This document shows positions 48,197-62,151 of a DNA stretch of 64,000 nucleotides, in pieces. Source of the DNA: Escherichia phage cardinal. Numbering within the stretch: position 1 is the first letter of the stretch; each line of letters starts with the position of its first letter. Below the pieces are notes generated by a model. That model saw only the letters and a list, made by a program, of their open reading frames with translations. It ran no database searches and had not been told where the DNA came from. Location of the stretch: the sequence record PQ567651.1; one strand, 5' to 3'. The translations under genes were made by a program, and so were the position numbers.

Positions 48197-48406
48197 AGGA
48201 AAGACAAGAAAAAGGCTGTTTTTGCCAGGTAATTACATGAAGAAATTAAAAATAAGCGGTCTAAAACACGTTGTAAGCGCCTTATGATCTTCATGGTATG
48301 GTTGTTCATCTGCTCCTTGATTAGCTCGATACCGCGATCTATTCACTTTTTTCGGTGAACGTTTTTGATAGGTAAAAGCTATCATCTTTATTTAGGTAAA
48401 AAGAAA

Positions 48407-48423
48407 GGGCGCAATAAGCGCCC
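48407..48423 (-). terminator. terminator hairpin gggcgc-aataa-gcgccc at end of minus block
   Basis: minus strand reads hairpin then TTTCTTTTT; same hairpin (opposite orientation) at 52283. Confidence 0.6.
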
Positions 48424-48439
48424 TTGTTTGAAATGTTAT

Positions 48440-48811
48440 TTACTGATAAGCTGGATCGTTTGTTATATCAATCCAATGAGATAAATTAATTTTATTTTTT
48501 GCTTTCATTTTCTCGATCAAACGTTCGGCTAATGTTTCTGAACGAATATAAACATGCTCGCTAAAATCTTGCCCCGTTTCTTCGTCGATCATTTCTCTAT
48601 ATTCAACCTTGCCGATAAACGCATAAGTTTTACCCGTGTACCAGTTATGTAAATGGATCTCGCATTTATAATCATCGCTATACCCTTCGGTTGTTCTAAC
48701 TTCAACCAAGTCACCTTTAAACACTGATAAGCACCACATAGGATCACGATCTACAGCGCCGTTAAAATCTTTACCGTTTACAGTAGCCGCCAGGTTGATG
48801 ATATTGCTCAT
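48440..48811 (-). CDS. hypothetical protein
   Basis: track ORF. Confidence 0.5.
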   Translation of the reverse strand: MSNIINLAATVNGKDFNGAVDRDPMWCLSVFKGDLVEVRTTEGYSDDYKCEIHLHNWYTGKTYAFIGKVEYREMIDEETGQDFSEHVYIRSETLAERLIEKMKAKNKINLSHWIDITNDPAYQ

Positions 48812-48886
48812 GGTGATTCCTCGTTTACCGTTTAAAATGATTTGCCCTACACGATAACTATAAGTTAACAGAGGCTATAAAGCAAG

Positions 48887-49117
48887 TTATTTTTCAAAAA
48901 ATTTTTCTACTGTGATATTCTTCCCAGTGGGATTAGCTACTTTCAAAATTTTATCATGTACTGGACGCCCAAAAGAATAAGATCCGTATACAGTAAACCA
49001 ATAATCACCGTCAGGCTGTACTATCACCGCTGCATAGGGTACGCCTTTTTCGTTATTGCTGACAGAATAGATCACATTGCCGTTAATAGCTTCAGCGCGT
49101 TTAATTTGTTCGATCAT
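48887..49117 (-). CDS. hypothetical protein
   Basis: track ORF. Confidence 0.5.
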   Translation of the reverse strand: MIEQIKRAEAINGNVIYSVSNNEKGVPYAAVIVQPDGDYWFTVYGSYSFGRPVHDKILKVANPTGKNITVEKFFEK

Positions 49118-49136
49118 GATATGATTCCTATATTGA

Positions 49137-49196
49137 GCGGGAAACCACTTCCCGCCTTACGTGATACATCTTAGTATAAGGGCGATCCGGTGTCAA
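49137..49196 (-). promoter_or_regulatory. promoter + stem-loop cassette (PeSL-like)
   Basis: minus: TTGACA-17-TAAGAT-GTATCAC..GGCGGGAAGTGGTTTCCCGC. Confidence 0.55.
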
Positions 49197-49324
49197 TAGG
49201 TAGAATTGTAAAGATTTGATAGTTTATTTCTTTGATGTTTTGTTATTTGATAGGTGGAAGCTATCAATATATAATAAGATCGTCCGGTGATTATCTTCCC
49301 CTGCTCCCAGGTGCCGCCCGTTCA

Positions 49325-49365
49325 ATAAGCATAACAAAAAACAGGACAAAAACAAGCCCTGTTTT
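49325..49365 (-). terminator. rho-independent terminator after 49373..49576
   Basis: minus: ACAGG-loop-CCTGT followed by TTTTTTGTT. Confidence 0.5.
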
Positions 49366-49372
49366 GTAAAGA

Positions 49373-49576
49373 TTAGATGATCTGCATATCCTCCACGATA
49401 ATTTCTAATTTCCAAACAAGATGATCTAAGCTCCCTGATAAAAATGATTCCGATACATAACCGCCATCTGACACCGTAGCAAGGATCTCGCCATTTGCTT
49501 GCTCTTTGATTTGAACATCCAGGCGGTTAGCCTTTGCTTTATTCAGGACGGCGATCAGGCGGTTAGCTGTAGTCAT
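49373..49576 (-). CDS. hypothetical protein
   Basis: track ORF. Confidence 0.5.
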   Translation of the reverse strand: MTTANRLIAVLNKAKANRLDVQIKEQANGEILATVSDGGYVSESFLSGSLDHLVWKLEIIVEDMQII

Positions 49577-49598
49577 GGTGTTTTCCTTCCAGTTGTGA

Positions 49599-49654
49599 GC
49601 GGCACTATTGCCGCCCTACGAAATACATTCTACCCGATTTATAATTGTTGTCAA
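49599..49654 (-). promoter_or_regulatory. promoter + stem-loop cassette (PeSL-like)
   Basis: minus: TTGACA-16-TAGAAT...GGCGGCAATAGTGCCGC. Confidence 0.5.
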
Positions 49655-49655
49655 A

Positions 49656-49925
49656 CTATTTTTTCAAGCTCGACCAGTCAAAACACGGGGCGATCTCGTT
49701 AAAACTTGTACCATGTAAAGCACATAATTTTTTAGCAATAGCCGCCGTAACCTGGCGTTGTACGCGCGGATCTGCTACTGATTGGAGAAAATAGGCGGTT
49801 TTATATGTGATCATGCTTTCGCCTGTTTCCTTGTTAACGTGGTGCACGGTTTTAGCCTTATCATCTTTTACCAGGGTGTAACCGGATTCGATGGCCTTGA
49901 TTGCAACGTCCAAAGATATTTTCAT
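49656..49925 (-). CDS. hypothetical protein
   Basis: track ORF. Confidence 0.5.
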   Translation of the reverse strand: MKISLDVAIKAIESGYTLVKDDKAKTVHHVNKETGESMITYKTAYFLQSVADPRVQRQVTAAIAKKLCALHGTSFNEIAPCFDWSSLKK

Positions 49926-49945
49926 GATTTACCTCTTTATTGACG

Positions 49946-49965
49946 GCGGGGAATACTCCCCCGCC
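49946..49965 (-). promoter_or_regulatory. leader stem-loop ggcgggg/ccccgcc
   Basis: GC hairpin of cassette family upstream of 49656..49925; no clear -35. Confidence 0.4.
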
Positions 49966-49972
49966 TTATTAA

Positions 49973-50143
49973 TTACTCTTCATCGTCGCCGTTATAGTAT
50001 TCAATGCCGTTTTCATCGGTTACAGTAATGTTAACGCCACCGATAGCAACACGATCACGGGCAAACGTCATGGCTTCATTTAAATCTTCAGACCAAAAAA
50101 TATTGTGACCTTTGCGCGATACATAAAACATAGTTGGGATCAT
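49973..50143 (-). CDS. small hypothetical protein
   Basis: 57 aa ORF filling gap between cassettes. Confidence 0.35.
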   Translation of the reverse strand: MIPTMFYVSRKGHNIFWSEDLNEAMTFARDRVAIGGVNITVTDENGIEYYNGDDEE

Positions 50144-50165
50144 GATTTGTTTCTCTTCTGTTGTG

Positions 50166-50226
50166 AGCGGGAAACCATTTCCCGCCCTATGTGATAAACT
50201 TTACTACGTTGTTTGCCTAGTGTCAA
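50166..50226 (-). promoter_or_regulatory. promoter + stem-loop cassette (PeSL-like)
   Basis: plus: gcgggaaaccatttcccgccctatgtgata...tgtcaa. Confidence 0.5.
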
Positions 50227-50227
50227 A

Positions 50228-50512
50228 TTATTTTTTAATGTTTTGCCCTACAAAATTGATCACTTCCTTAAGCTGTTTCTCAGTCATGATCGTGCCTGGT
50301 AATTCTTCTTTGATTTCTTCCGGTAGATAGATATTACCGCGCCAGGTTAATAAACAACCGTTTTGATCTTCGCAGATAGAATAAGAGAAGATCCACTCAT
50401 TATCATTCTCAAGCTCCCAAAAGCACAAAAAATCTTCTTTCCCTAAATTTTCAACGGTTAAACATAATCCGCGACGTGCTGCATAGTTGGAAAGTGCTTT
50501 TGTGATCTTCAT
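50228..50512 (-). CDS. hypothetical protein
   Basis: track ORF. Confidence 0.5.
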   Translation of the reverse strand: MKITKALSNYAARRGLCLTVENLGKEDFLCFWELENDNEWIFSYSICEDQNGCLLTWRGNIYLPEEIKEELPGTIMTEKQLKEVINFVGQNIKK

Positions 50513-50531
50513 AGCTTATCTCTTCTGTTAA

Positions 50532-50594
50532 GGCGGGGAAACCATTTCCCCGCTCTATGAGATACAATATACTATCTGTTAGGTGTGCTGTCAA
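50532..50594 (-). promoter_or_regulatory. promoter + stem-loop cassette (PeSL-like)
   Basis: plus: ggcggggaaaccatttccccgc...tgtcaa. Confidence 0.5.
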
Positions 50595-50918
50595 TCAATA
50601 ATCTTTAAGATTTTCTACATTTACAAAAGTGCGTTTATTTTCTAAGTTTTCGCCGTACCATTGCCCCATGTTGATTTCTGCGGTGCGCAACCAGGACATG
50701 CCGCGCTCTATCTTTTTACTTGCAATCTCGATCCGGCTTTTGCATAGTGCTTTCGCTTGCAATGTAAAAACACTATTGCCCTGTAATGCTTCCAGGTCAT
50801 CATGTGCAAGGCGATACTCTTTAAAGCCTGATTCTATCATTTCAATAGCATCAAGTAAACGCGCGCGATGATAGAAAAAATCAGAGTTATCCAAATAAAC
50901 ACCGATCACAGATTTCAT
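50595..50918 (-). CDS. hypothetical protein
   Basis: track ORF, internal ATG start. Confidence 0.45.
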   Translation of the reverse strand: MKSVIGVYLDNSDFFYHRARLLDAIEMIESGFKEYRLAHDDLEALQGNSVFTLQAKALCKSRIEIASKKIERGMSWLRTAEINMGQWYGENLENKRTFVNVENLKDY

Positions 50919-51247
50919 AATTTTACCCTTTTGTTTGCGGCCTTTGCCGTTTTCAAGATATAGTTTAAAGCATAACAAAAAATTGTCAAGCCTTTAAAGC
51001 GTACAACTATAAAACCTATTAAAACACAATGTATAACAACATGGCTATAGTAGCAATACAACATAAAGCCATGCTTGTTTTCCTTCCTTCCTCGTATGCT
51101 GGATTTATTACGCTATATTGTACGGGAATAATTTTCATGCTGTTTCCTTAATGTCTTAAAACGTGGTTTACAATAGAAACAAGCATACAGAAGAAAAAAG
51201 ATCCTGTCAATAAGATACCGAAAAATAAATGTAAATAGGGCATGGTT

Positions 51248-51550
51248 TTACTCCTTAAAAAAATCATTGACAATTAAACTGATAACGCCCAGCACCAGAT
51301 CACCAGGTAGTGCCGCGCTTTCGTTGTTGCTTGTTTGCACTTCCTCACTAGTACCAGCACGATAGATTGCATGGTAAGCAATAGTATAATAACCTTTCGT
51401 TATTTCTTTAAGATTAATGATTAGCACGTTATTTGTTTCATCTTGAAACAATTTAGCGGTGATAGTATTGTTTTCTTTTACACTATCGACTTTTATTGAT
51501 GGATCATTTACACCAGAAAAAAGAAAAAACGTTTTAGCTATGCCGTTCAT
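51248..51550 (-). CDS. hypothetical protein
   Basis: track ORF. Confidence 0.5.
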   Translation of the reverse strand: MNGIAKTFFLFSGVNDPSIKVDSVKENNTITAKLFQDETNNVLIINLKEITKGYYTIAYHAIYRAGTSEEVQTSNNESAALPGDLVLGVISLIVNDFFKE

Positions 51551-51597
51551 GTAGTTCTCCTTTGTTGTGTGTATCTTATAACGTGCTTTCTATGTTG

Positions 51598-51999
51598 TCA
51601 ATCTTTTATCTCGGTGCATTTTGCCAGGGTATACGTTGCAAGTGCTGACACTAGTTTTTCATTGCTACGATCTGCGGCTGTACTGTGTACTTTTTGAATA
51701 CTTTTTAACCACGGCGTAAAATTTTGAGTAGTCAGCACACTGGTAATAATTTCACATGGCACATCTTCATTTAAGCCGTTAACAATAGATTTATCTATTT
51801 TTGCCGTTAGTTGTGTAACAGCACCATAAGCGATCATGTGTGAATCCTCCATGATTTCATCGGGGATCGCATTATTAATAAGCATGACGTTTTCCATTGC
51901 ATCAACGGCGCTTAATTCTGCTACTGTGGAGGATATCGCCGCGCTAGATGTTCCAACCATGCCAAAAGAGATTAAACCAGCGATCAATAATTTTTTCAT
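51598..51999 (-). CDS. secreted protein with signal peptide
   Basis: MKKLLIAGLISFGMVGTSSAA signal-peptide-like. Confidence 0.5.
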   Translation of the reverse strand: MKKLLIAGLISFGMVGTSSAAISSTVAELSAVDAMENVMLINNAIPDEIMEDSHMIAYGAVTQLTAKIDKSIVNGLNEDVPCEIITSVLTTQNFTPWLKSIQKVHSTAADRSNEKLVSALATYTLAKCTEIKD

Positions 52000-52007
52000 T
52001 TCTTGCC

Positions 52008-52190
52008 TCATATATGTTTTATTGAGATTATATTGTCACTATATACAACGTTTTTCAACGTGTCAATAAAAATCTTATTGCCTTCAATCCCCAGGATCAC
52101 GCCGCTAGTTATGAAGCCATATTGATCACGATATCGGGCGCATAACCTTTGCCCCTGGGCTAGTGCCTTGCTTATTTCGTCTAATTTCAT
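52008..52190 (-). CDS. hypothetical protein
   Basis: track ORF. Confidence 0.45.
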   Translation of the reverse strand: MKLDEISKALAQGQRLCARYRDQYGFITSGVILGIEGNKIFIDTLKNVVYSDNIISIKHI

Positions 52191-52282
52191 TTTTAAAGCT
52201 CCTGTAAAGCCGTCTAACGTTGATTTATAGGCTTATCCTGGCGTTACCATTGCCTATGGGTAACAAGCCTCTATATAAGCTA

Positions 52283-52310
52283 AAAGGGCGCTTATTGCGC
52301 CCTTTTTTGT
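52283..52310. terminator. bidirectional terminator hairpin gggcgc-ttatt-gcgccc
   Basis: aaaagggcgcttattgcgcccttttttg. Confidence 0.55.
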
Positions 52311-52447
52311 TATTCGTTCCAGTATCTTTTTGTGCTGCGATCTCTTTTTGTTTTGTTCCGCTTGTCGCCTTTTTTGGTGATCTCTTCGTTCCAATTTTTA
52401 CGCGCCTTGCTGCGGTTGAATTTTTCGATCTGCTGTGATGCGTTCAT
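52310..52447 (-). CDS. small basic protein
   Basis: 45 aa ORF with AAGAGGAAG RBS. Confidence 0.3.
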   Translation of the reverse strand: MNASQQIEKFNRSKARKNWNEEITKKGDKRNKTKRDRSTKRYWNE

Positions 52448-52462
52448 GTTTCTTCCTCTTAA

Positions 52463-52822
52463 TTACGCCACGTTATGCTGTTTTGCCAGGATTACGATCA
52501 TGCTTGCAATATATAACCAATAATTTTCCCGCTCACGGGTAACGGTTGTTTCTTTGCTTGTTTCTTTTATGTACTTCCATTCAATTAACAAGTGATCGAT
52601 CTCGTTATAATCAAAAGCAATATTGATTTCTGACGGTAAACCTTGTAACCAGGAGGCTATCGCCTTGATCATGTTGTGATTGTAACGTTTTTGATTATCG
52701 GGATACCAGTATTCAGATGTAAAACGGCGCATCAGTTCGGTGATCTTTTCTTTTTCTGTTGTAGTACCCTCAAAAGAAATAGCCGACACAATGTAAGTTT
52801 TAATTGCTTTTACTGATTTCAT
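52463..52822 (-). CDS. hypothetical protein
   Basis: track ORF. Confidence 0.5.
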   Translation of the reverse strand: MKSVKAIKTYIVSAISFEGTTTEKEKITELMRRFTSEYWYPDNQKRYNHNMIKAIASWLQGLPSEINIAFDYNEIDHLLIEWKYIKETSKETTVTRERENYWLYIASMIVILAKQHNVA

Positions 52823-52842
52823 AATCTTATCTCTTTATTGTT

Positions 52843-52901
52843 GGCGGGAAACCATTCCCCGCCGTTGTTGTTACTTTACTTATAAATGATGCTACTGTCA
52901 A
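52843..52901 (-). promoter_or_regulatory. promoter + stem-loop cassette (PeSL-like)
   Basis: plus: ggcgggaaaccattccccgcc...tgtcaa. Confidence 0.5.
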
Positions 52902-52908
52902 ACGGATA

Positions 52909-53079
52909 TTATTTGTTTTTTAACGTTAATGTTCCCAGCTTATCAGCGTGACGCAGACCAGGAAAGATCCATTTTCCTGATTCATCTTTTACCGGGGCTT
53001 TAAGCGTAGCGCCCAGGTTGGCGGCATTAACTTTACGTGCAACGTTGCGAGCGGCTTCACGGGTAGCGAAAGTGATCAT
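52909..53079 (-). CDS. small hypothetical protein
   Basis: 56 aa ORF with GAAGAGGAAA RBS. Confidence 0.35.
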   Translation of the reverse strand: MITFATREAARNVARKVNAANLGATLKAPVKDESGKWIFPGLRHADKLGTLTLKNK

Positions 53080-53103
53080 GATGTTTTCCTCTTCTCTTTG
53101 TTA

Positions 53104-53188
53104 GGCGGTGGGCTATTCCACCGCCTTGATGAATACAGTTTACTTTATTTTTGCAGTATTGCAAGCGGTTTTATGAAATAAATGTCAA
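53104..53188 (-). promoter_or_regulatory. stem-loop + TTGACA element (cassette variant)
   Basis: plus: ggcggtgggctattccaccgcc...tgtcaa. Confidence 0.4.
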
Positions 53189-53386
53189 AGTAAAATCATA
53201 ATCTTTTGACAGTTTATATTGCACCTTGTTACCGTATATGTCACCTTTACGTAAAGATCCGCGAATACCTATTACATCCTTTACATCTTTAAGATTTTTC
53301 ACGCCTGTAATGTCTTTATTGAAATGATCGTGATCAGAAAATAAAACCTGCTTTGCATTTTTTAACAGTGTGCGGATATTAGCCAT
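53171..53386 (-). CDS. hypothetical protein
   Basis: track ORF. Confidence 0.5.
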   Translation of the reverse strand: MANIRTLLKNAKQVLFSDHDHFNKDITGVKNLKDVKDVIGIRGSLRKGDIYGNKVQYKLSKDYDFTLTFIS

Positions 53387-53407
53387 TTGATAATCTCTCT
53401 TACTAGG

Positions 53408-53464
53408 GGCGGCACTATTGCCGCCCTATGCATTACATTTTACTGATTTTAGTTATCTTGTCAA
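53408..53464 (-). promoter_or_regulatory. promoter + stem-loop cassette (PeSL-like)
   Basis: plus: ggcggcactattgccgcc...tgtcaa. Confidence 0.5.
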
Positions 53465-53472
53465 TATTATTT

Positions 53473-53700
53473 TTAGTTTAATTGATCCAGGCACAACAAG
53501 CGATCAACATTCAGATCGGTTAGGCTAATCGTTGGCACCTGGTAGGATTCGATGTACTCAACGCTCGACCATTGCCCGAAGTTAGCGACCGCCCAGCTAT
53601 TCAAGGAAGAGTGAAGATCATCCCCTTTCTTCTCGGTGATAACTGCTACTACCTGGGAGCTTCCAACCGTACCGGATACGCGAACAATAACGATAGCCAT
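53473..53700 (-). CDS. hypothetical protein
   Basis: track ORF. Confidence 0.5.
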   Translation of the reverse strand: MAIVIVRVSGTVGSSQVVAVITEKKGDDLHSSLNSWAVANFGQWSSVEYIESYQVPTISLTDLNVDRLLCLDQLN

Positions 53701-53722
53701 AATGATAACCTTTCTTTGATTT

Positions 53723-53782
53723 GGCGGGAAACCATTTCCCGCCCTATGTGATATATCTTACACTAATTTAAAACGTTGTCAA
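53723..53782 (-). promoter_or_regulatory. promoter + stem-loop cassette (PeSL-like)
   Basis: plus: ggcgggaaaccatttcccgccctatgtgatatatctta...tgtcaa. Confidence 0.55.
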
Positions 53783-53877
53783 ATTATTTTCTATTTCTTC
53801 CGTAATAGCCCAATTTATGATCTAAGCTAAAACGTTTTGTGAGATAGGTCGAACGATGTTTCATTTTTATGTCTCCT

Positions 53878-54117
53878 TTACATTCCAACCATAGCGGCAC
53901 GGATCGCGGTTTTACTGAACTTGAATCCGTCTGGCGTTTTATCTTGATCCATACTTTCAAGAAATAACATCATATCCCGCGCTGCGTCATTCTTATTGGT
54001 GTTAGCTGCGATAAATTCACGCGCAAGATTATAAAAACCTTCATCGTTGTTGATCCAAAGGCTTACATTCCAATGAGTTTTGTTTTTGTGACCTAAGAAC
54101 ATTTTAGATTTAGCCAT
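53878..54117 (-). CDS. hypothetical protein
   Basis: track ORF. Confidence 0.5.
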   Translation of the reverse strand: MAKSKMFLGHKNKTHWNVSLWINNDEGFYNLAREFIAANTNKNDAARDMMLFLESMDQDKTPDGFKFSKTAIRAAMVGM

Positions 54118-54141
54118 GATGTTAATCTCTTTTTCAGTGAG

Positions 54142-54199
54142 GCGGGAACTATTCCCGCTCTCGATATAAGTATTATATGCTTTTTATTCGTGCTGTCAA
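54142..54199 (-). promoter_or_regulatory. promoter + stem-loop cassette (PeSL-like)
   Basis: plus: gcgggaactattcccgc...tgtcaa. Confidence 0.5.
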
Positions 54200-54205
54200 T
54201 GCTTT

Positions 54206-54571
54206 TTATAAATCTTTTTTACGTTTAACATCGCTTGCATGACTGTATACAGCGATCCCATTATCACGGCAAAAACGGGAAAGATACGCGCCGCGTGAAA
54301 ACTCTTTGCCCTCCAGGTTGATAACCTTGCTAAACTCTTCCAGGGCGACGGTATCAAAATGATCCCCATAACCATATTGAAACGGAACGTTAACGACTTC
54401 AATCAGTTTACCGCCGATCTCAACGTCAACCATCAAAGAGAAATAAGTATTACCATAAGACTTTTGAAACCAGCGACGGGCGCTAATATGTACCGCTTCA
54501 ATGCTGGATAGTTCAATTTTAGCAGTGTTAGCCAGGGTAGCATAAGCAGAAACATTGATATTTTTAGCCAT
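54206..54571 (-). CDS. hypothetical protein
   Basis: track ORF; preferred over overlapping 54196..54402. Confidence 0.5.
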   Translation of the reverse strand: MAKNINVSAYATLANTAKIELSSIEAVHISARRWFQKSYGNTYFSLMVDVEIGGKLIEVVNVPFQYGYGDHFDTVALEEFSKVINLEGKEFSRGAYLSRFCRDNGIAVYSHASDVKRKKDL

Positions 54572-54666
54572 AGTCTTTAATCTCTTTTGATTAGTTAGGA
54601 GTATTCCCGATAAAAGTTATTATGCTTGTACTATCGTTCGTTGTCAATAGCACAAGACTAAAACTT

Positions 54667-54848
54667 TTAACGATAATCATCATAGGCTTTATTGACCTGG
54701 CGAATATAGCATTCAAAAGCTAGATCAATAGATTTATATTCACGGATATAATCACCATAGGAAACCACATACATTTCTATAGCTTCCTCATATGCCAGGA
54801 TGATAGAATCTAAACCTACGATCTCAGTCTTTGCAATAATAGCCATGC
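54667..54848 (-). CDS. small hypothetical protein
   Basis: 59 aa ORF with TAAGGAA RBS. Confidence 0.35.
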
Positions 54849-54932
54849 TTTTATTCCTTAGTAATGTTTCAATCTATATAAGCATTATAGCTTACTGATT
54901 TCAGGTGTCAAGTGATTTTTTATTTCACCTTA

Positions 54933-54989
54933 TGGGGCGTTGCCCCGCTTTATGTGGTACATATTACGGGGCTTGTTCGCATATGTCAA
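54933..54989 (-). promoter_or_regulatory. stem-loop + TTGACA element (cassette variant)
   Basis: plus: ggggcgttgccccgc...tgtcaa. Confidence 0.4.
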
Positions 54990-54992
54990 GCC

Positions 54993-55547
54993 TTACACAA
55001 GACAATTTTCATAATTTTTTAGGGCTTGTCTTTTTTCCTCTTCCGTCGGCATGTATGGCTGGATCTCTTCCTCTTCCAGGGTAGGCATGATTTCTTCCTC
55101 TTCCTCCTGGTCGTCCTGGTCTTCCTCTTGCGCTACTGCAACAAGTTTATTGATCTTCTCCTGGGCTTTAATCAATTTTGCATCTAGCACCATTTTAGCG
55201 GTGTTGTATACCGTCCATGCCATGCGTTTTTCTTCGTATGCTTTATCTAGTGCGGCTAATTTAGCGGGATACTCTTCCAACACCTTAAAAGCCGGATCAA
55301 TGCTGTATAAGGGATTATTTTTAGCGTCATCGCTTGGATCTGCGGCGCTTGCAATGTCAGCGTTGCCATTCGCCAGCCATCCAGGGCGAACGGATCGCGC
55401 CTTTGTGTTGCCGTTGCTCTTTGCCGCTCGATTTCCTATCTGCTCCCCGCTATACCCTACCATGTGATCGATCATGTCATCTGGTATTATGCGCGGATCA
55501 TTAGCGTCATGCTTTACCCAGGACTGGATCACATATTCACGCCCCAT
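54993..55547 (-). CDS. hypothetical protein with acidic C-terminus
   Basis: track ORF. Confidence 0.5.
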   Translation of the reverse strand: MGREYVIQSWVKHDANDPRIIPDDMIDHMVGYSGEQIGNRAAKSNGNTKARSVRPGWLANGNADIASAADPSDDAKNNPLYSIDPAFKVLEEYPAKLAALDKAYEEKRMAWTVYNTAKMVLDAKLIKAQEKINKLVAVAQEEDQDDQEEEEEIMPTLEEEEIQPYMPTEEEKRQALKNYENCLV

Positions 55548-55809
55548 GTTCGTTCGCCTCTTCTGTTAGTAGTTTACATACCTTAAACATGCTTGCCGCG
55601 TCTTTTGACGGTAGCCAGCCTATGCGATACACTCCAGGATCTGGATTCGTTATATCTGTTAATTGAGCGTTACGATGATTAAAAATAGTGTAACCGCCGC
55701 CAGCACGGGGATAAACATTATCTTTAAACCTGATAGCGTATCTCGCCAGGTTGAACGTTGTAGCATGTTCAAAAGCGATCACATTATCAAAAACTTTTAG
55801 AAAAAACAA
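55537..55809 (-). CDS. hypothetical protein
   Basis: track ORF. Confidence 0.5.
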   Translation of the reverse strand: MFFLKVFDNVIAFEHATTFNLARYAIRFKDNVYPRAGGGYTIFNHRNAQLTDITNPDPGVYRIGWLPSKDAASMFKVCKLLTEEANEHGA

Positions 55810-55810
55810 G

Positions 55811-55957
55811 ATTATCCTCCCCAGCGTTTAAAGCCCGTTGCACGGTTATTTTTTAACTCTCGTTTTAGTCTCTTGCAACGGTTTACAAGTGCAAACCGTG
55901 CCGGAGTGGTAACAGTAGCGCCGTTTTTGGTGTGAATACTCATTACATATTGTTTCA
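55811..55957 (-). CDS. small basic protein
   Basis: 48 aa ORF with AGGA RBS. Confidence 0.3.
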
Positions 55958-55976
55958 TAAAGTTTTATCCTATGTA

Positions 55977-56030
55977 AGCGGGAACTATTCCCGCTTTAAG
56001 ATAGCTTATCAGGTTTTAGTGCAATGTCAA
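55977..56030 (-). promoter_or_regulatory. promoter + stem-loop cassette (PeSL-like)
   Basis: plus: gcgggaactattcccgctttaagatagc...tgtcaa. Confidence 0.5.
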
Positions 56031-56036
56031 CCGTTT

Positions 56037-56399
56037 TTATTCGTAAATTTTACCGCTTTCTACCCATACCATAACGCGGCGCATATTATCCCATGCATCT
56101 TGTCGCAGATTTAAGGCATGCAATTCTTCGGTTGTGCTCATACCTGGTACGGGCTTGCTATATGTTACAAAGAGATCGCCAGCATATTCATAAGCCAGGG
56201 TAAGATCACATTGAATCATCTTTTTAAGCATAGCATTAAGCATCATATTAGCGGCATGTTGATCACGTTTTAGCGGTAGCGTTGCGATCTGTGAGCGATA
56301 GCTTTCGATCCGTGCATCCACTGCATCACGTGGAAGATTTTTCACGTCGTCGCGGAAAGATACCAGGTTTAACATGATAGTATTGATTTGCTTGCTCAT
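56037..56399 (-). CDS. hypothetical protein
   Basis: track ORF. Confidence 0.5.
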   Translation of the reverse strand: MSKQINTIMLNLVSFRDDVKNLPRDAVDARIESYRSQIATLPLKRDQHAANMMLNAMLKKMIQCDLTLAYEYAGDLFVTYSKPVPGMSTTEELHALNLRQDAWDNMRRVMVWVESGKIYE

Positions 56400-56424
56400 T
56401 GTGTTACCCTTTCTTTGATGGCCT

Positions 56425-56484
56425 GGCGGGAAACCATTTCCCGCCCTATGTGATACATCTTATCAGATTAAAAAACGTTGTCAA
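56425..56484 (-). promoter_or_regulatory. promoter + stem-loop cassette (PeSL-like), best consensus copy
   Basis: minus: TTGACA-16-TAAGAT-GTATCACATAG-GGCGGGAAATGGTTTCCCGCC, about 25 nt before ATG. Confidence 0.6.
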
Positions 56485-56503
56485 GAATATTTTTTAGATA
56501 ATT

Positions 56504-56785
56504 TTAACTATATGATCCACATTGTTCGCAGTAGTGATCATCGTCGCCATCAGCTACCTGGCTGATAAAGTGATCTACTTTTGCTTTTAGGTTATTATAA
56601 TTGTTTTCTACTTCCTTTAATCGCTCCTGATAGTAGCCCAGGGCTTTAATATACGCCGCCTCTTCTGTTTTTTCACGCATGGCTAAATTCATGCCGCGCG
56701 TATCATCATACAGCCAAAAGCCATCGGTACATTCACTCATTGAAAGGGTAGGGCTTAACTCTTTATGATTAATTACCTTGCTCAT
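56504..56785 (-). CDS. hypothetical protein
   Basis: track ORF, internal ATG start; C-terminal CEQCG. Confidence 0.45.
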   Translation of the reverse strand: MSKVINHKELSPTLSMSECTDGFWLYDDTRGMNLAMREKTEEAAYIKALGYYQERLKEVENNYNNLKAKVDHFISQVADGDDDHYCEQCGSYS

Positions 56786-56796
56786 AGTGTGCGCCT

Positions 56797-56901
56797 TATA
56801 GAATGATTGAAACAACAATTGCTACAGTGATCCACACTGGAACGGCTAACAAAATAGCGTTAATCGTTCCAACCGTCAAGCTGTTTTCTTTCTTGATCAT
56901 C
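56797..56901 (-). CDS. small membrane peptide
   Basis: 34 aa hydrophobic ORF with AAAAGG RBS. Confidence 0.3.
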
Positions 56902-57169
56902 GTTATCAACCTTTTATAAGTAATGTTATTGTGACGGTGGATTGTGGAGATCCTCACCTTTGCCCGTCCTGCATTGCGCCCTCCTTTTGTTTATTGTCGT
57001 TGTGCCTCGCCCCCCTCGACAAGATGAATAATACGCTACCAGGTGAGGAACGTCAACCCCTTTTTTAATCTTTTTTTCATTTCTTTTTTTTGCTTGCTAT
57101 CTATAAAGGAAAGGGCTATTATCTTTCTACCACGCCAACCAGGGCGCACATCAAAGAAAGGGCGATACC

Positions 57170-57436
57170 ATGACAAATACTACTTTACACCTCATGCACT
57201 CATTAGGCTGGCAAGGCGGCACGGTGCACCAGGTAGCAAGCGCAACGGGCTTAAAGGTTGAAACCGTTCTCAACCTGGGCGATCATAAGGTGGAAGAAAT
57301 AGATCATTTTGATACGTTCGCAAATGGTTATCTATGGGCTTGCAGTGGCGGCGGGGAAAGCAAGATCCCACCAGGGGCGCGGGGTGATATATATTTTTGG
57401 TTAGGTGTCCTATCCTGGCAAGAAAACAAAAAATAA
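57170..57436 (+). CDS. hypothetical protein
   Basis: track ORF. Confidence 0.5.
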   Translation: MTNTTLHLMHSLGWQGGTVHQVASATGLKVETVLNLGDHKVEEIDHFDTFANGYLWACSGGGESKIPPGARGDIYFWLGVLSWQENKK

Positions 57437-57438
57437 TA

Positions 57439-57467
57439 TTGACAAGCCCAGGGATCGGGCTTATACT
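57439..57467 (+). promoter_or_regulatory. sigma70-like promoter TTGACA-17-TATACT with palindromic spacer
   Basis: TTGACAagcccagggatcgggctTATACT. Confidence 0.5.
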
Positions 57468-57586
57468 GTTTTACATACAGAAGAGGAAGCGCCACCCCCA
57501 CGGCGTAAAGGCGGGGCTAACATACCAGGGCACTACTGGTTGGAAGGTTGATCGCTGGTACAACGTATTTACAAAGGAGGTTAGCA

Positions 57587-58180
57587 ATGAAAAAAGTTTT
57601 TGGAGTAGGCATTAACGATAGTGCAAAGCCGATCAAAGGTTGTCGATTCTATGCAACATGGCGCAACATGTTACAACGTTGTTATAGTGAATCATATCAG
57701 GACAAAAGGCCATCTTATAAAGGTTGTAGTGTTTGTGATGAATGGTTGACGTTTAGCACTTTTCGTGCTTGGATGGAACAGCAGGATCACCAGGGAAAAC
57801 AATTAGATAAAGATATAATAACACCGGGTAATAAACTCTATTGTCCTGATCGTTGCGTATTTGTAACGCAAGAAATGAATAGTTTGTTAACAGTTACAAA
57901 GAGTAACAAAGGGGATCATCCTTTGGGTGTTTCATTTTTGAATCATAAACCATTGCCGCGCCCTTATTTAGCAACAATACGTTATAATAACGTAGTGGAA
58001 AGATTAGGGTACTATGTAGATCCTTTATCCGCTCATTTGGCCTGGAATAGGCGCAAACGTGAAATAATCATAGAGATTATTAGTAATGAAACGGATTCAA
58101 GGATCGCCGCTGGCTTGGCTTTACGTGTTGACGCTCTCGATCTGGCTTATGAAAATAAAGCGGAAATAACTTGCTTATGA
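57587..58180 (+). CDS. putative homing-endonuclease-like DNA-binding protein
   Basis: ATG after AAGGAGG; N-terminal FYATWRNMLQRCYSESY...GCSVCDEW motif and AP2-like GVSF...RLGYY segment. Confidence 0.4.
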   Translation: MKKVFGVGINDSAKPIKGCRFYATWRNMLQRCYSESYQDKRPSYKGCSVCDEWLTFSTFRAWMEQQDHQGKQLDKDIITPGNKLYCPDRCVFVTQEMNSLLTVTKSNKGDHPLGVSFLNHKPLPRPYLATIRYNNVVERLGYYVDPLSAHLAWNRRKREIIIEIISNETDSRIAAGLALRVDALDLAYENKAEITCL

Positions 58181-58183
58181 CGC

Positions 58184-58212
58184 TTGACAAGCGCCCGACA
58201 AGGGCGCATAAT
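58184..58212 (+). promoter_or_regulatory. TTGACA + palindrome + CATAAT element at start of non-coding region
   Basis: cTTGACAagcgcccgacaagggcgCATAATc. Confidence 0.4.
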
Positions 58213-58436
58213 CTCTTACATAGACAGGAACGCCTACCAATGGCGCTAAACTTGGTGATGATAGCCGCAGGGCATCGACAGCTATAATCGCCGGTAGCTC
58301 GTCTAAAATAAATTTGTAAAGAAATGTAAAGATAAAAATAATCGCTTGCTTTTGTTGTTGGTTATGCTATTCTTATTGTATGGCGAGGGGACACGGGAGC
58401 GCGAGACAAACACCGCCCCTGCGCGTTATTTTCTAA

Positions 58437-58546
58437 ATGAGAAAATTCTCATTTGCTAATGATTCTCATTCTCTTACTGAGAATGATTATCACTTACATA
58501 ATTAAATGATAATGATTCTCATTTACAAATGAGAATGATTATCATA
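58437..58546. promoter_or_regulatory. cluster of Fur-box-like palindromes
   Basis: repeated aatgattctcatt / gagaatgattatcat units. Confidence 0.4.
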
Positions 58547-58766: not shown

Positions 58767-59082
58767 TTTTGTACTTTTTATAAAAATGATTTTACTGTTC
58801 TGTTATAAGTAGTAGTTAAGAGATAGTATGCCTTTTAAAGATCAGATACCATAGTCAAACAAACAAATTAAATACTTTATTAACAGAGTACAGAATAATA
58901 TTTACTCTGGATATATTATTCAGAGGGTGGATTTCCGTACATGAAACCCACACCCCTTTTTATAAAAATAAAAATTTTCAAAATATCAGTAAATATCAGA
59001 TTGTGCTTTTAGATAAACAGCAAGGTCTGTATGCCATTTTCCTAAAAGATTTTGTCCTTTCCAACAGTCCTTATTTTCCACA

Positions 59083-59538
59083 TCACGATCCCACATTCCC
59101 ATTTTTGATACCATAAATAGAATCATAAGGGCTTGCCTCTACGAACTCCTTATCTGCGTAAGCGATAAGTTTATTTTTGAGATCTTCATTTTGTGTGTAT
59201 TTAAGATACAAACCACGTTTGACAATCTTCTCCCGTAAAGAAGTCCAGGTATCTTCATCATAATCTTTAACTAATCTGCCTAGACGTTTATAATATGCTT
59301 GTTCTTTTTCTCCTGTATATCTTAGATCTCCGGTTAAAATAGAAGATGCAATATTGTAATCATAAAACAAACATGCTTTTCTCCACATCATATATTGTTC
59401 CACACAAGTAAATTCGACAGAACTTGTGATAGAATTATTATACTTGGGAGCTAAAGGTTCAATAAAAGATGATAGATACCAGTTGCTAAATTCATCTTTT
59501 GCCGAGAAAAAGAACACATACTTGTCAGTAATCCGCAT
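59083..59538 (-). CDS. NADAR (YbiA-like, DUF1768) domain protein; C-terminus apparently frameshifted
   Basis: FTCVEQYMMWRKACLF, RLGRLVKDYDEDTW, EFVEASPYDSIYGI match NADAR; conserved C-terminal WKGQNLLG lies in +1 frame. Confidence 0.6.
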   Translation of the reverse strand: MRITDKYVFFFSAKDEFSNWYLSSFIEPLAPKYNNSITSSVEFTCVEQYMMWRKACLFYDYNIASSILTGDLRYTGEKEQAYYKRLGRLVKDYDEDTWTSLREKIVKRGLYLKYTQNEDLKNKLIAYADKEFVEASPYDSIYGIKNGNVGS

Positions 59539-60936
59539 TTACACCTCCTTATTGTATACTAATTTGCCACCATATTGTGTAACAATTTTTTGAAGATTTT
59601 CCAAATCAGAAACACTTACTGTTTCTGTATGACCATCTTTCAACTCTCTTGCCGTTAAAATACCAGTTTTTAATTTTTTCTTTATAGCTCTTTCAGCAGC
59701 CTTACATTGTTTCACTGTGCTAAAATCATATAAACAAATACGCTCCATAGGAAACATATTACAGCTATTTTGACGTTTTAATCGACTATCACTATTTTTA
59801 GCTATACCAAACTTAAGAGCAACTATAATATTATCATCCTTAACAATATTAATATATAACTGCTGCTGACTATGACCAGCACACATAGGACAACCTCGAC
59901 CGTGGCTTAATAAGGCATTAGCCCTCCCTGTCTGTTCCCCATGCACAAGACAAAGATATTTAAACTTACCGTGACTTCTAGACGGTTTACCGATCCAACC
60001 TACCCAGACATACCCTTTCCCTTCTACTTCCTTTTTTACCCTGTAGGTAATCTGATTTTCTGTATAGTGATAACTAGTTGCACAGCGGCAAGGGATACTT
60101 CCTTGTTTTAGGGGCCACCCTTTAGAGTAAAATTTACCATCGCAAACACCTGCTTGAACATATTCATCATGGGAGCAAACAGGACACTCAACCATCCATA
60201 CTGCATCACGCTTGTTACGTTTCCCTGTATTGGTGAAGATAGTGCCTTCCTTAAATTTCCCTGTAGAAAAGAAATCTGCAATATGTTGATCGTCGGACAT
60301 TGTTAGTGCCTTCCTTGTATTCTCATACCTACATAAAGGACAACCATAACCACGTTTAAAATTGTTAATACTTGTAGTATCCCATTTATAACCACAGTGA
60401 CACAACAAATCAAGTTTTGTTTTATGTCCTTTCCATTTTCCAACGTACCCTAACACCTGATACCCCTTCTTCTGTGCTATCTCTTCCAAGATCGGTAATT
60501 CTGTTTCCCATGCTAACGGTTTATTACTTGCACATGCCGGACAACCACGTCCATTCCTAAAATCAATAATGTTTGTGGTGTTCCACTCTCCATGTTTAGG
60601 GCAAATTATGCGAATTTTTGTTCGCACACCTCGCCACTCCTCGGCAAGACCTATAAAAGTAAACCCTCTTTCTTTAGCAATATCAACAAGGGAGATACAT
60701 TCCTTTTCTTCTGTTACTTTTCTATGACCATTGCAATCGGAGCAACATTTACCGCCTTTAGTTTTAAATACATTGATTATGGTACTTTCCCACTCTCCAT
60801 GATCAGAGCAAGATAGCTTAAGCCTAGTCCTGCTACCTTTCCATTCACCAACATAACCCAAGATTTGAATATTGTGATTTTTAGCAAGGGGTATTAATTC
60901 TTCTTTATATTGTTCCCATGATTTTAGTGCTACCAT
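59539..60936 (-). CDS. protein with five N-terminal Cys-rich (zinc-ribbon-like) repeats and C-terminal T5orf172/GIY-YIG-like domain
   Basis: repeats of LGYVGEWKG..TKL.L.C..HGEW.TT.IN.F..G.GCP.C; C-terminal LYINIV...FGIAKNSDSRLKRQ. Confidence 0.5.
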   Translation of the reverse strand: MVALKSWEQYKEELIPLAKNHNIQILGYVGEWKGSRTRLKLSCSDHGEWESTIINVFKTKGGKCCSDCNGHRKVTEEKECISLVDIAKERGFTFIGLAEEWRGVRTKIRIICPKHGEWNTTNIIDFRNGRGCPACASNKPLAWETELPILEEIAQKKGYQVLGYVGKWKGHKTKLDLLCHCGYKWDTTSINNFKRGYGCPLCRYENTRKALTMSDDQHIADFFSTGKFKEGTIFTNTGKRNKRDAVWMVECPVCSHDEYVQAGVCDGKFYSKGWPLKQGSIPCRCATSYHYTENQITYRVKKEVEGKGYVWVGWIGKPSRSHGKFKYLCLVHGEQTGRANALLSHGRGCPMCAGHSQQQLYINIVKDDNIIVALKFGIAKNSDSRLKRQNSCNMFPMERICLYDFSTVKQCKAAERAIKKKLKTGILTARELKDGHTETVSVSDLENLQKIVTQYGGKLVYNKEV

Positions 60937-61010: not shown

Positions 61011-62045
61011 TTAAAACACACTTGCCAAAGTTGCACCATTGGTGATAGTTGGTTCCAGAACAATACGGAAAGAATCTTCTGGATCATCACTAAACACAAC
61101 GATTTTACCGCCTGTAATAAGGTCTGCTTTCATTTTTGTCGCATTCAATGGAATTCGAGCATCTCCTTCATCATCAAAAACCACGTAAGAGCTATTAGCA
61201 AGGGCTTCTTTAGAGTCTGCATCACTTGGAGATGACAAGTACACGTCTAGTGTGCACGAACCACCTAAAAAGATTGCAGGTGTGAAGTTATGCCAACTAG
61301 ATACCCAGCTAACTTTCTGAAGTTTTCCATTAATAACAACGCTGCTGATATCCCATTTATTACCACCACCTAAAGAAACACCCATCATAGAGATGCATTC
61401 TTTAAAGGATAAATCAGGGTAGAAATTAAGTTCTTCTACTATACCTTGGATCACATCAAAGGACAACTCTAAACTTACATCCCAAAGTCTTTGGAAATTA
61501 TCAAAGTGTGCTTTGTTATCCAGGTTTTTATCTAAATAGTCAATCATAGTTTCTAGTGAGATTTTATCATAATTAAAATTATAAAACACACGACTAGGAC
61601 GATTTAAAAAGAATTCAGAGATAAAACCACTGTTTTTAGTCAGAATAAACAGTTTATTACCACTGCCAGTACCATCTAACAAAGTGAGAAGTGCTTCTTG
61701 ATCTTGTTTCTTCTCATACACTTTATCAAACTCGTCAAAAATAATCACTGCTTTGTCGGTGATCTTGCTAATAAGTTCAATGAAATTAGCATCGCTGTAG
61801 GCTTGAGTAACCATAATAGTTGGAATACCTTCTTCTACAAGGTCACGACTAATGAGTTTGGCTAACATAGTTTTACCACTGCCCTTAGTTCCTGTCAGGA
61901 GCAAACCTGTATTTTTACCTTGTGCACTCCGGCGATGGAATGTACGAATAACGTGATTTGCTCGTTTTTCTGTTTCACCATACAGAACATCCGGTACACC
62001 TGTTAGATTACCACGGCTTAAAAAAATAATTGCCAAGGGGATCAC
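61011..62045 (-). CDS. AAA+/P-loop ATPase; N-terminus may extend to ATG near 62140 through a frameshift at an A7/T7 run
   Basis: Walker A GTKGSGKTML, Walker B VIIFDEFD; GTG start lacks RBS while upstream ATG has AAGGGG RBS in +1 frame. Confidence 0.6.
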   Translation of the reverse strand: MIPLAIIFLSRGNLTGVPDVLYGETEKRANHVIRTFHRRSAQGKNTGLLLTGTKGSGKTMLAKLISRDLVEEGIPTIMVTQAYSDANFIELISKITDKAVIIFDEFDKVYEKKQDQEALLTLLDGTGSGNKLFILTKNSGFISEFFLNRPSRVFYNFNYDKISLETMIDYLDKNLDNKAHFDNFQRLWDVSLELSFDVIQGIVEELNFYPDLSFKECISMMGVSLGGGNKWDISSVVINGKLQKVSWVSSWHNFTPAIFLGGSCTLDVYLSSPSDADSKEALANSSYVVFDDEGDARIPLNATKMKADLITGGKIVVFSDDPEDSFRIVLEPTITNGATLASVF

Positions 62046-62151
62046 GACTAACAGTATAGAATCCAGGTGGAAGATAGTTAGATTCCACGCCCATATCTTT
62101 ATTTACACTTACAATATCACCATAAATCGTGTATTTCATTTTAAACCCCTT

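What the first reader, a model, noticed from the sequence alone, without database searches (positions are those of the whole stretch)
58986..59538. NADAR (YbiA-like) gene with an apparent +1 frameshift near its 3' end
The track ORF stops at 59083 after ...SPYDSIYGIKNGNVGS, but the conserved NADAR C-terminus (...WKGQNLLGKWHTDLAVYLK) is encoded in the +1 frame down to a stop near 58986. The shift maps to an A5 run in atcaaaaatggg; removing one A fuses the two parts. NADAR proteins reverse ADP-ribosylation, including DarT-type DNA ADP-ribosylation, so this is a candidate anti-defence gene.
Basis: seen in the sequence. Interest (0 to 1): 0.5.

Follow-up and report, generated by a model that had tools for sequence, protein, structure and literature searches.

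The report
Frameshifted phage anti-DarT NADAR gene
This is a phage copy of an already characterised enzyme gene (AdfN, a NADAR) that removes a defensive ADP-ribose mark from DNA; in this one automatically assembled genome it is split by a single extra A that no close relative carries, so it is an ordinary private mutation or assembly error, not a new mechanism.

Summary
On the minus strand, a 151-aa NADAR ORF (59538..59083) is followed in the +1 frame by the rest of the domain (to 58986). Deleting one A from the A5 run (59106..59102) gives a 183-aa protein that fits Pfam NADAR end to end. All 55 close relatives (Justusliebigvirus, phi92/VEcB-like E. coli phages) have A4 and an intact 552-nt gene. 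The repaired protein is 99% identical to bas60_0111, published as AdfN^Bas60, which neutralises DarT1 and restores plaquing on DarTG1 hosts (PMC11825919). That paper also describes a natural precedent: RB69 adfN has a 1-nt insertion, loses its C-terminal helix and leaves RB69 DarTG1-sensitive. Here the known ADP-ribose-contacting residues stay in ORF1. The lost tail holds the invariant WxGxNLLG motif and the terminal helix. The exact truncated protein is on record on only one contig, an unpolished Logan assembly of SRR33749226. That contig has five more private frameshifts in conserved genes, but normal substitution patterns and no excess of long-homopolymer changes. Whether the extra A is real (about 0.5) or a consensus error (about 0.42) cannot be settled without the reads. 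There is no sign of programmed frameshifting. Known gene, low novelty.

The parts
58986..59538 (-). Whole adfN-type NADAR gene as it would read without the extra base (553 nt here, 552 nt in all relatives)
   Evidence: The repaired product is 183 aa, fits Pfam NADAR positions 9-154 of 163, and is 180/182 identical to bas60_0111.
59083..59538 (-). ORF1: 151-aa N-terminal NADAR fragment. Residues 1-145 are authentic, followed by 6 out-of-frame residues (NGNVGS) and a TGA stop.
   Evidence: It holds E47, K54, K84, R88, Y93, W98, R102, E134 and D139, the equivalents of the ADP-ribose-contacting residues of PnNADAR (alignment, residue list).
58986..59126 (-). ORF2 in the +1 frame: from codon 9 on it encodes authentic residues 146-183 (MGMWDRD...WKGQNLLGKWHTDLAVYLKAQSDIY)
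   Evidence: NADAR profile 137-154. It contains the invariant residues W159, G161, N163, L164, L165 and G166 and the C-terminal helix 164-182 of the AlphaFold model.
59102..59106 (-). A5 run (T5 on the + strand): site of the private one-base insertion. Relatives have A4.
   Evidence: 55 of 55 close relatives are one base shorter. In IMG/VR the A4 allele is on 3 contigs and the A5 allele on none.
59544..59550 (-). Shine-Dalgarno AAGGAGG, 5 nt upstream of the ORF1 ATG, inside the 3' end of the upstream gene
   Evidence: Read directly from the sequence.
59539..60936 (-). Context only: the upstream gene abutting adfN (its TAA stop is immediately followed by the adfN ATG). It encodes a 465-aa protein with five CapR-homology repeats and a T5orf172 domain.
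   Evidence: The same gene order (ATPase, CapR/T5orf172 gene, NADAR) is found in all relatives fetched.

Best explanation
The locus is the orthologue of AdfN^Bas60, an orphan NADAR-family DNA ADP-ribosylglycohydrolase. Phi92-like (Justusliebigvirus) phages use it to strip the ADP-ribose that the host DarT1 toxin puts on guanine in phage DNA, which defeats the DarTG1 defence system. In this genome the gene carries a private, non-programmed one-base insertion (A4 to A5) at codon 145/146. As written, translation leaves the NADAR frame, adds six wrong residues and stops. The 151-aa product keeps every known ADP-ribose-contacting residue but lacks the invariant W-x-G-x-N-L-L-G motif and the C-terminal helix. 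It should therefore be a weak or dead enzyme, as shown for the naturally frameshifted RB69 allele. I marginally favour the extra A being really present in the sequenced DNA, as a recent replication-slippage loss-of-function allele and one of six such hits in accessory genes. A consensus error is almost as likely. Shown here: gene identity, the site, that the insertion is private, and what is lost. Taken from the literature: the biochemical function, and that the C-terminal helix is needed for full activity. Inferred: loss of function here, and that the base is real.
For: Identity and function: Pfam NADAR E 2.5e-36. The AlphaFold model of the 98%-identical P0001 has pLDDT 97 and matches 8BAU (TM 0.77) and 2B3W. 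The repaired protein is 180/182 identical to bas60_0111, with the same gene neighbourhood. AdfN^Bas60 neutralises DarT1 and rescues three phages on DarTG1 but not on DarTG2 (PMC11825919).
Private and non-programmed: 55 of 55 relatives have A4 and an intact gene. The exact truncated protein is on one contig only.
What is lost: 6 of the 20 invariant columns and helix 164-182. The RB69 precedent and the truncated T4 AdfN show reduced activity.
For the base being real: the window's private homopolymer-length changes (8) are no more numerous than those of curated genomes (5 and 9), and none of 60 runs of 6 nt or more changed. Private substitutions look normally selected, with N/S 0.37 against 0.38 and 0.29 and no nonsense changes. 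The six CDS frameshifts all miss the 1-25 kb replication and nucleotide-metabolism block, which holds 45% of coding bases (P about 0.03). One of them is loss of a GT unit and one is G to AA, neither a classic homopolymer miscall. Logan contigs are a k-mer consensus of the run.
Against: The source is a single unpolished automatic assembly of one run on an unknown platform, and no independent sample shows the allele. The window has six uncompensated private frameshifts in conserved CDSs, against one in muut. At the three loci checked widely, none of the listed relatives shows the window's length change: 55 at the NADAR gene, and 40 listed of 55 at each of the phosphatase and ATPase sites. So this genome is an outlier, and it is also the only uncurated one. 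The anomaly is specific to indels, as expected for some sequencing chemistries. The same A4-to-A5 change occurs in an unrelated, plainly error-ridden metagenome contig, so this run can be mis-called. The P of about 0.03 came from a post hoc partition. Loss of function of the 151-aa form is inferred, not tested.
Confidence: 0.5

Rival explanations
1. The extra A is not in the phage DNA. It is a consensus error of an unpolished de Bruijn-graph assembly of one sequencing run. The real phage has A4 and a normal, functional 183-aa AdfN.
For: The allele is seen on one Logan contig only, and Logan contigs get no read-level polishing and discard base qualities. Six private uncompensated frameshifts sit in conserved genes, four of them 183-375 aa long and intact in the relatives. 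Substitutions are normal, so only indels are odd. An unrelated, error-ridden contig carries the same A4-to-A5 change plus two more +1 insertions in this gene.
Against: There is no platform-type signature: 0 of 60 runs of 6 nt or more changed, all changes are in runs of 2-5 nt, and the total private indel load is no higher than in curated genomes. The changes include loss of a GT unit and a G-to-AA change. The frameshifts avoid the essential-gene block (P about 0.03). A 72-kb k-mer-consensus contig implies good coverage, at which short-run miscalls should not become the consensus path (inference).
Confidence: 0.42
2. Recoding: the A5 run is a slippery site. A +1 shift of tRNA-Lys on A_AAA_A, or RNA polymerase dropping one A, regenerates the full-length enzyme. 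That shift would give exactly the ancestral ...IKMGMW... sequence, so the gene is expressed despite the frame break.
For: Reading the sequence directly, AAA in the 0 frame and AAA in the +1 frame both pair with tRNA-Lys, and the +1 product is identical to the ancestral protein. Some low spontaneous leakiness at such runs is plausible (general knowledge, not tested).
Against: The site is not conserved: 55 of 55 relatives, 3 IMG/VR contigs and more distant homologues all encode one continuous ORF. No stimulators are present: the 0-frame A-site codon is an ordinary AAU, there is no in-frame stop at the shift site, and there is no Shine-Dalgarno-like element in the 15 nt upstream. A5 is shorter than the runs of about 8-9 A or T known to support efficient transcriptional slippage (general knowledge). 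Five other genes in the same contig are broken at unrelated sequences.
Confidence: 0.04
3. Split enzyme: ORF2 is translated on its own from its ATG at 59126, which has a weak GAGG 9 nt upstream, and the two fragments reassemble into an active NADAR.
For: ORF2 has an ATG and a weak SD-like GAGG. Together the two ORFs cover the whole domain.
Against: The same ATG and GAGG are present in relatives with an intact gene, so nothing has evolved for this. The break lies inside a conserved loop. ORF2 would carry 8 wrong N-terminal residues and ORF1 6 wrong C-terminal ones. None of the 532 homologues found is organised as two genes.
Confidence: 0.02

Closest known systems
AdfN^Bas60 (anti-DarT factor NADAR of BASEL phages Bas60, Bas61 and Bas62; PMC11825919)
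   Same: The same gene. It is 96-97.8% identical in DNA, 180/182 in protein after repair, in the same genomic position after the ATPase and CapR/T5orf172 genes, and in the same phage genus. The published activity is neutralising DarT1 and rescuing phages on DarTG1, specific for guanine ADP-ribosylation.
   Different: The window's copy has one extra A (A5 instead of A4), which splits it into 151-aa and 46-aa ORFs. No activity data exist for this allele.
RB69 adfN (gene 30.3), a natural frameshift allele (PMC11825919)
   Same: A phage NADAR anti-DarTG1 gene inactivated by a single-nucleotide insertion near the 3' end. The catalytic residues are kept and the C-terminal helix is lost. RB69 is DarTG1-sensitive, and the equivalent T4 truncation has reduced activity.
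   Different: It belongs to a different NADAR clade: T4-type AdfN has His where this protein has Glu134, and AdfN^T4, unlike AdfN^Bas60, could not neutralise DarT1 without phage infection. RB69 loses 15 residues. Here 38 residues are lost, including the family's most conserved motif. The RB69 allele is confirmed in an isolate, whereas this one rests on one automatic assembly.
Phytophthora nicotianae NADAR (PDB 8BAU) and DarG1-type NADAR antitoxins (PMC11543638)
   Same: The same fold (Foldseek E 2e-9, TM 0.77) and the same ADP-ribose-binding residues: E43, K50, K75, R79, W89, R93, E125 and D130 correspond to E47, K54, K84, R88, W98, R102, E134 and D139.
   Different: About 28% identity. It is not next to a DarT toxin, so it is an orphan, and it lacks the N-terminal extension of DarT1-associated NADARs. 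Y142 replaces W133.
E. coli YbiA (PDB 2B3W), an N-glycosidase of riboflavin intermediates
   Same: The same NADAR superfamily and fold, with Glu at the position used to define the YbiA subfamily (E134).
   Different: 21% identity. The published phylogeny groups AdfN^Bas60 with non-YbiA bacterial NADARs. The annotations 'YbiA-like N-glycosidase' and 'GTP cyclohydrolase II' on relatives are transferred names, not tested functions.

Membership tests
NADAR superfamily (Pfam PF08719) | Significant match to the family profile above the curated threshold | tested here: met
   ORF1 scores 104.5 bits and the fused product 125.8 bits, against a cut-off of 35.1.
NADAR superfamily (Pfam PF08719) | NADAR/YbiA fold | tested here: met
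   the model of the 98%-identical intact orthologue P0001 (pLDDT 97.2) matches 8BAU (TM 0.77) and 2B3W (TM 0.68-0.74). No other PDB fold scores better than E about 2.5.
NADAR superfamily (Pfam PF08719) | Conserved ADP-ribose-binding and catalytic residues (Glu, Lys seven residues later, and the Glu/Asp/His at the PnNADAR E125 position) | tested here: met
   E47, K54 and E134 are invariant in the 40-sequence alignment and align to PnNADAR E43, K50 and E125 (SEQRES offset +2; their roles are described).
NADAR superfamily (Pfam PF08719) | Complete domain, including the C-terminal W-x-G-x-N-L-L-G motif and terminal helix, encoded in one reading frame | tested here: not met
   the motif is present but in the +1 frame. 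ORF1 ends at profile position 132 of 163. The window holds a disrupted member, not an intact one.
AdfN (orphan phage anti-DarTG1 NADAR), AdfN^Bas60 type | Orthology to the characterised Bas60, Bas61 and Bas62 protein | tested here: met
   180/182 after repair; locus tags bas61_0107 and bas60_0111, same neighbours.
AdfN (orphan phage anti-DarTG1 NADAR), AdfN^Bas60 type | Orphan: no cognate DarT toxin gene adjacent | tested here: met
   The upstream neighbour is a CapR/T5orf172 protein. Beyond it lies an AAA ATPase, and downstream there are only short ORFs.
AdfN (orphan phage anti-DarTG1 NADAR), AdfN^Bas60 type | Removes guanine-linked ADP-ribose from DNA, neutralises DarT1 and restores plaquing on DarTG1 hosts | not testable with these tools
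   Reported for AdfN^Bas60 in PMC11825919. Not known for the 151-aa form.
DarG1 antitoxin (DarT1-NADAR toxin-antitoxin operon) | Encoded in an operon with DarT1 | tested here: not met
   No DarT-like neighbour. The PADLOC match is to a candidate-system model, PDC-M42C, not to a DarTG model.
Programmed +1 frameshift or transcriptional slippage (recoding site) | Shift site and two-frame arrangement conserved among relatives | tested here: not met
   0 of 55 relatives, 0 of 3 IMG/VR contigs and 0 of 40 aligned homologues.
Programmed +1 frameshift or transcriptional slippage (recoding site) | Stimulatory context: a stop or rare codon in the A site, an upstream SD-like element, or an A/T run of about 8 or more | tested here: not met
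   Direct reading of 59130..59090: AUC AAA AAU GGG, with no stop, no SD-like element, and a run of only 5.

The most novel reading that the evidence does not exclude
The extra A is real and the short A-run works as a reversible slippage switch. The population toggles adfN (and other accessory genes hit in the same genome) off and on. Alternatively, low-level +1 slippage on A_AAA_A regenerates the exact wild-type enzyme. Either way this would be a second natural 3'-frameshifted AdfN allele after RB69, in an independently acquired NADAR clade, predicting DarTG1 sensitivity and hinting at a cost of carrying AdfN.
Probability: 0.05. Interest if true: 0.4.

Novelty: already known. Interest (0 to 1): 0.15.

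Why it matters
Practically, anyone annotating this contig should call the locus adfN (NADAR, anti-DarTG1) with a frame break, not two hypothetical proteins. They should also treat the contig's six frameshifted genes with caution. If the allele is real, this phage is predicted to be sensitive to DarTG1, unlike Bas60, Bas61 and Bas62. It would then be a second natural example of a phage losing its NADAR counter-defence through a 3' single-base insertion. That would be useful for host-range prediction but would not be a new principle. If it is an artefact, it shows that unpolished run-level assemblies can carry indel errors without the usual long-homopolymer signature.

Tried and rejected
1. 'A short C-terminus is normal for this family': rejected. 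All 40 aligned homologues (39-98% identity) have the C-terminal motif, and 13 of the 15 listed members of the 108-member cluster are 183 aa.

2. Programmed frameshift: rejected as the main reading, because the site is not conserved and has no stimulators.

3. 'The assembly is generally homopolymer-error-prone': not supported. Private homopolymer changes number 8, against 5 and 9 in curated genomes, with none in runs of 6 nt or more.

4. 'General relaxed selection or a noisy consensus': not supported. N/S is 0.37 against 0.38 and 0.29, with no nonsense changes.

5. Independent confirmation of A5: the only other A5 contig, CYGL01000295.1, is from a different lineage and is full of single-base indels, three of them in this gene. 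It is a positive control for error, not a confirmation.

6. P0012, a 103-aa N-terminal fragment, sits near the end of a 3-kb contig with 2.4x coverage and is uninformative.

P0001 was used for the structure instead.

8. The promoter and terminator scan around the gene found nothing above shuffled expectation.

9. A literature search for the run accession found nothing.

10. Two script calls returned no answer and were rerun.

Full report
**Observation.** The minus strand of 58986-59538 holds a 151-aa ORF (59538..59083, ending ...YGIKNGNVGS*). A 46-aa ORF follows in the +1 frame (59126..58986) and contains ...MGMWDRDVENKDCWKGQNLLGKWHTDLAVYLKAQSDIY*. The two frames overlap around ATCAAAAATGGG (59109..59098), and removing one A of the A5 run (59106..59102) gives a continuous 552-nt, 183-aa ORF. 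Pfam NADAR (PF08719) matches ORF1 at profile positions 9-132 of 163 and ORF2 at 137-154. It matches the fused product at 9-154 in a single stretch, scoring 125.8 bits against 104.5 for ORF1 alone.

**Source and relatives.** The window belongs to a Justusliebigvirus (phi92/VEcB-like, Stephanstirmvirinae) E. coli myovirus. It is about 97.8% identical to phages arall and muut over 61 kb, and its own record is not in the phage collection. All 54 full-length close relatives span 552 nt against the window's 553, and a 55th, split across its record start, is also one base short. Six relatives aligned base by base read ATC AAA ATG GGN ATG TGG, with A4 and an intact 183-aa protein. Downstream of the run, their mutual differences are third-codon-position changes in the fused frame, so the tail is under coding constraint. 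IMG/VR holds the A4 allele on 3 contigs and the A5 allele on none. The exact 151-aa protein is on record on a single contig, SRR33749226_0 (71,993 bp), a Logan automatic assembly that is evidently the window's source.

**What the gene is.** The fused protein is 180/182 identical to bas60_0111 of phage PaulScherrer (Bas60), and the gene is also present in EmilieFrey (Bas61). PMC11825919 (Nat Commun 2025) names the NADAR of Bas60, Bas61 and Bas62 AdfN^Bas60. It shows that the protein neutralises DarT1 toxicity in E. coli and restores plaquing of RB69, T5 and Bas25 on DarTG1 hosts, with no effect on DarTG2. An AlphaFold model of the 98%-identical cluster representative P0001 (pLDDT 97.2) matches P. 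nicotianae NADAR bound to ADP-ribose (8BAU, TM 0.77) and E. coli YbiA (2B3W), and nothing else. The intact gene is therefore a known orphan DNA ADP-ribosylglycohydrolase used as a counter-defence. Annotations such as 'YbiA-like N-glycosidase' and 'GTP cyclohydrolase II' on relatives are transferred names.

**What the frameshift removes.** I aligned the fused protein to 8BAU (the SEQRES numbering is offset by +2 from the paper, consistently for all residues checked). The ADP-ribose contacts listed in PMC11543638 map as follows:

| PnNADAR | E43 | K50 | K75 | R79 | Y84 | D86 | W89 | R93 | E125 | D130 | W133 |
|---|---|---|---|---|---|---|---|---|---|---|---|
| Window protein | E47 | K54 | K84 | R88 | Y93 | E95 | W98 | R102 | E134 | D139 | Y142 |

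All of these lie upstream of residue 146 and are retained in ORF1. Residues 146-183 are lost. They hold six of the 20 invariant columns of a 40-sequence alignment spanning 39-98% identity (W159, G161, N163, L164, L165, G166) and the C-terminal helix 164-182. A natural precedent exists. RB69 adfN has a T insertion at nt 411 that truncates 15 residues (the terminal helix), RB69 is DarTG1-sensitive, and T4 AdfN truncated at the same point has reduced activity. The loss here is larger, so the 151-aa product is most likely a hypomorph or null. This is an inference.

**Error or real mutation?** A three-way census against arall and muut, using arall's CDS table, found 16 clean private indels in the window. 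Six are uncompensated frameshifts inside conserved CDSs:

| Window position | Change | Gene affected |
|---|---|---|
| 26351 | T4 to T5 | 67-aa protein |
| 28458 | T3 to T2 | NinI-like phosphatase (247 aa) |
| 38027 | A5 to A6 | 82-aa protein |
| 43268 | loss of one GT unit | 194-aa protein |
| 59106 | A4 to A5 (T4 to T5 on the + strand) | adfN |
| 62026 | AAAAAG to A7 | FtsH-like ATPase (375 aa) |

Muut has one such hit, in a 56-aa ORF. The phosphatase deletion and the ATPase insertion are absent from all 40 relatives listed in each search.

- **For an artefact.** The source is a single unpolished k = 31 de Bruijn consensus of one run, with base qualities discarded. It is an outlier among 55 curated genomes. 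The anomaly is specific to indels. The same A4-to-A5 change occurs in an unrelated contig, CYGL01000295.1, which has at least 10 single-base indels in 7.4 kb, three of them in this gene.
- **For a real allele.** The window's private homopolymer changes (8) are no more numerous than muut's (5) or arall's (9). All are in runs of 3-5 nt, and none of 60 runs of 6 nt or more changed. Private substitutions are normally constrained: 245 synonymous, 91 nonsynonymous and 0 nonsense, N/S 0.37 against 0.38 and 0.29. The six frameshifts all avoid the 1-25 kb replication and nucleotide-metabolism block, which holds 45% of aligned coding bases (P about 0.03, from a post hoc partition). Two of the events are not simple homopolymer miscalls.

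I put a real allele at about 0.5 and an artefact at about 0.42. Only the reads can decide.

**Recoding.** A +1 slip of tRNA-Lys on A_AAA_A would recreate exactly the ancestral IKMGMW sequence. However, the site is absent from every relative, the A-site codon is an ordinary AAU, there is no upstream SD-like element, and the run is too short for efficient transcriptional slippage. Probability about 0.04. A two-piece enzyme, with ORF2 translated from its own ATG behind a weak GAGG, has no supporting evidence. Probability about 0.02.

**Verdict.** The gene is already characterised in sister phages. The frame break is a private single-base event of unresolved origin, with a published natural parallel. 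Novelty: already known. Interest: low.

Noticed in passing
window 26351; 28458; 38027; 43268; 62026: Five further private, uncompensated frameshifts in CDSs that are intact in arall and muut. They are T4 to T5 in a 67-aa gene (26321-26525), T3 to T2 in the NinI-like Ser/Thr phosphatase (28379-29121), A5 to A6 in an 82-aa gene (37954-38203), loss of one GT unit in a 194-aa gene (42844-43426), and AAAAAG to A7 near the 5' end of the FtsH-like AAA ATPase (61011-62139). The phosphatase and ATPase changes are absent from all 40 relatives listed in each search.
   Followed up: yes
window 59539-60936 (-): The gene abutting adfN encodes a 465-aa protein with five CapR-homology repeats and a C-terminal T5orf172 domain. 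Its length varies among relatives (about 325-397 aa in most, 467 aa in Bas60), apparently through repeat number, and its internal region aligns poorly to arall and muut. Relatives annotate it 'endonuclease'. It has no PADLOC hit.
   Followed up: partly
window 1-276 (-), 348-1241 (-), 33605-34417 (+): NAD-related genes in the same genome: a Prs-like phosphoribosyl-pyrophosphokinase-family gene (Pfam Pribosyltran and Pribosyl_synth) lies next to the 3' end of a gene that relatives annotate as nicotinamide/nicotinate phosphoribosyltransferase. From memory, this pairing resembles the NARP1 (Adps + Namat) NAD+-reconstitution counter-defence. There is also a Sir2-family gene (E 4e-20). So this phage group seems to carry several NAD/ADP-ribose-centred counter-defence functions besides AdfN.
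   Followed up: partly
L017 (CYGL01000295.1) 9582, 9694, 9714: A metagenome contig of a different Justusliebigvirus lineage carries three +1 insertions within the adfN gene, one of them the same A4-to-A5 change, and at least 10 single-base indels in 7.4 kb. This is almost certainly sequencing error, and it shows that this A-run is prone to over-calling in error-prone data.
   Followed up: yes
protein cluster of P0001 (members P0127 and P0012): A 74-aa C-terminal fragment of the same protein (P0127, starting at ...YLKYTQNEDL) is on record on 6 contigs of up to 148.5 kb. This suggests another lineage or assembly set in which adfN is disrupted further upstream. P0012, a 103-aa N-terminal fragment, comes from a contig with 2.4x coverage.
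   Followed up: partly
phage collection hits MG065639, MG065645, MG065656, MG065689: Four to five records named 'Campylobacter phage' with host C. jejuni are about 96-97% identical to these E. coli Justusliebigvirus genomes across the locus. They carry no annotation and look like mislabelled or contaminant genomes.
   Followed up: no
window 58920-58965 and 46500-58500: An imperfect GC-rich inverted repeat (GGGGTGTGGGTTTC...GGAAATCCACCC) lies just downstream of the adfN stop. It carries another private 1-nt insertion (58949, C2 to C3) and is not followed by a T-run. The 46.5-58.5 kb stretch is gene-poor, repeat-bearing and aligns only patchily to relatives. No tRNA genes were found anywhere in the window.
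   Followed up: partly
repaired AdfN protein: The repaired protein's only PADLOC match is to PDC-M42C (E 2e-34), a model from a candidate defence system, and not to a DarTG model. NADAR domains thus also occur in uncharacterised candidate defence systems.
   Followed up: no
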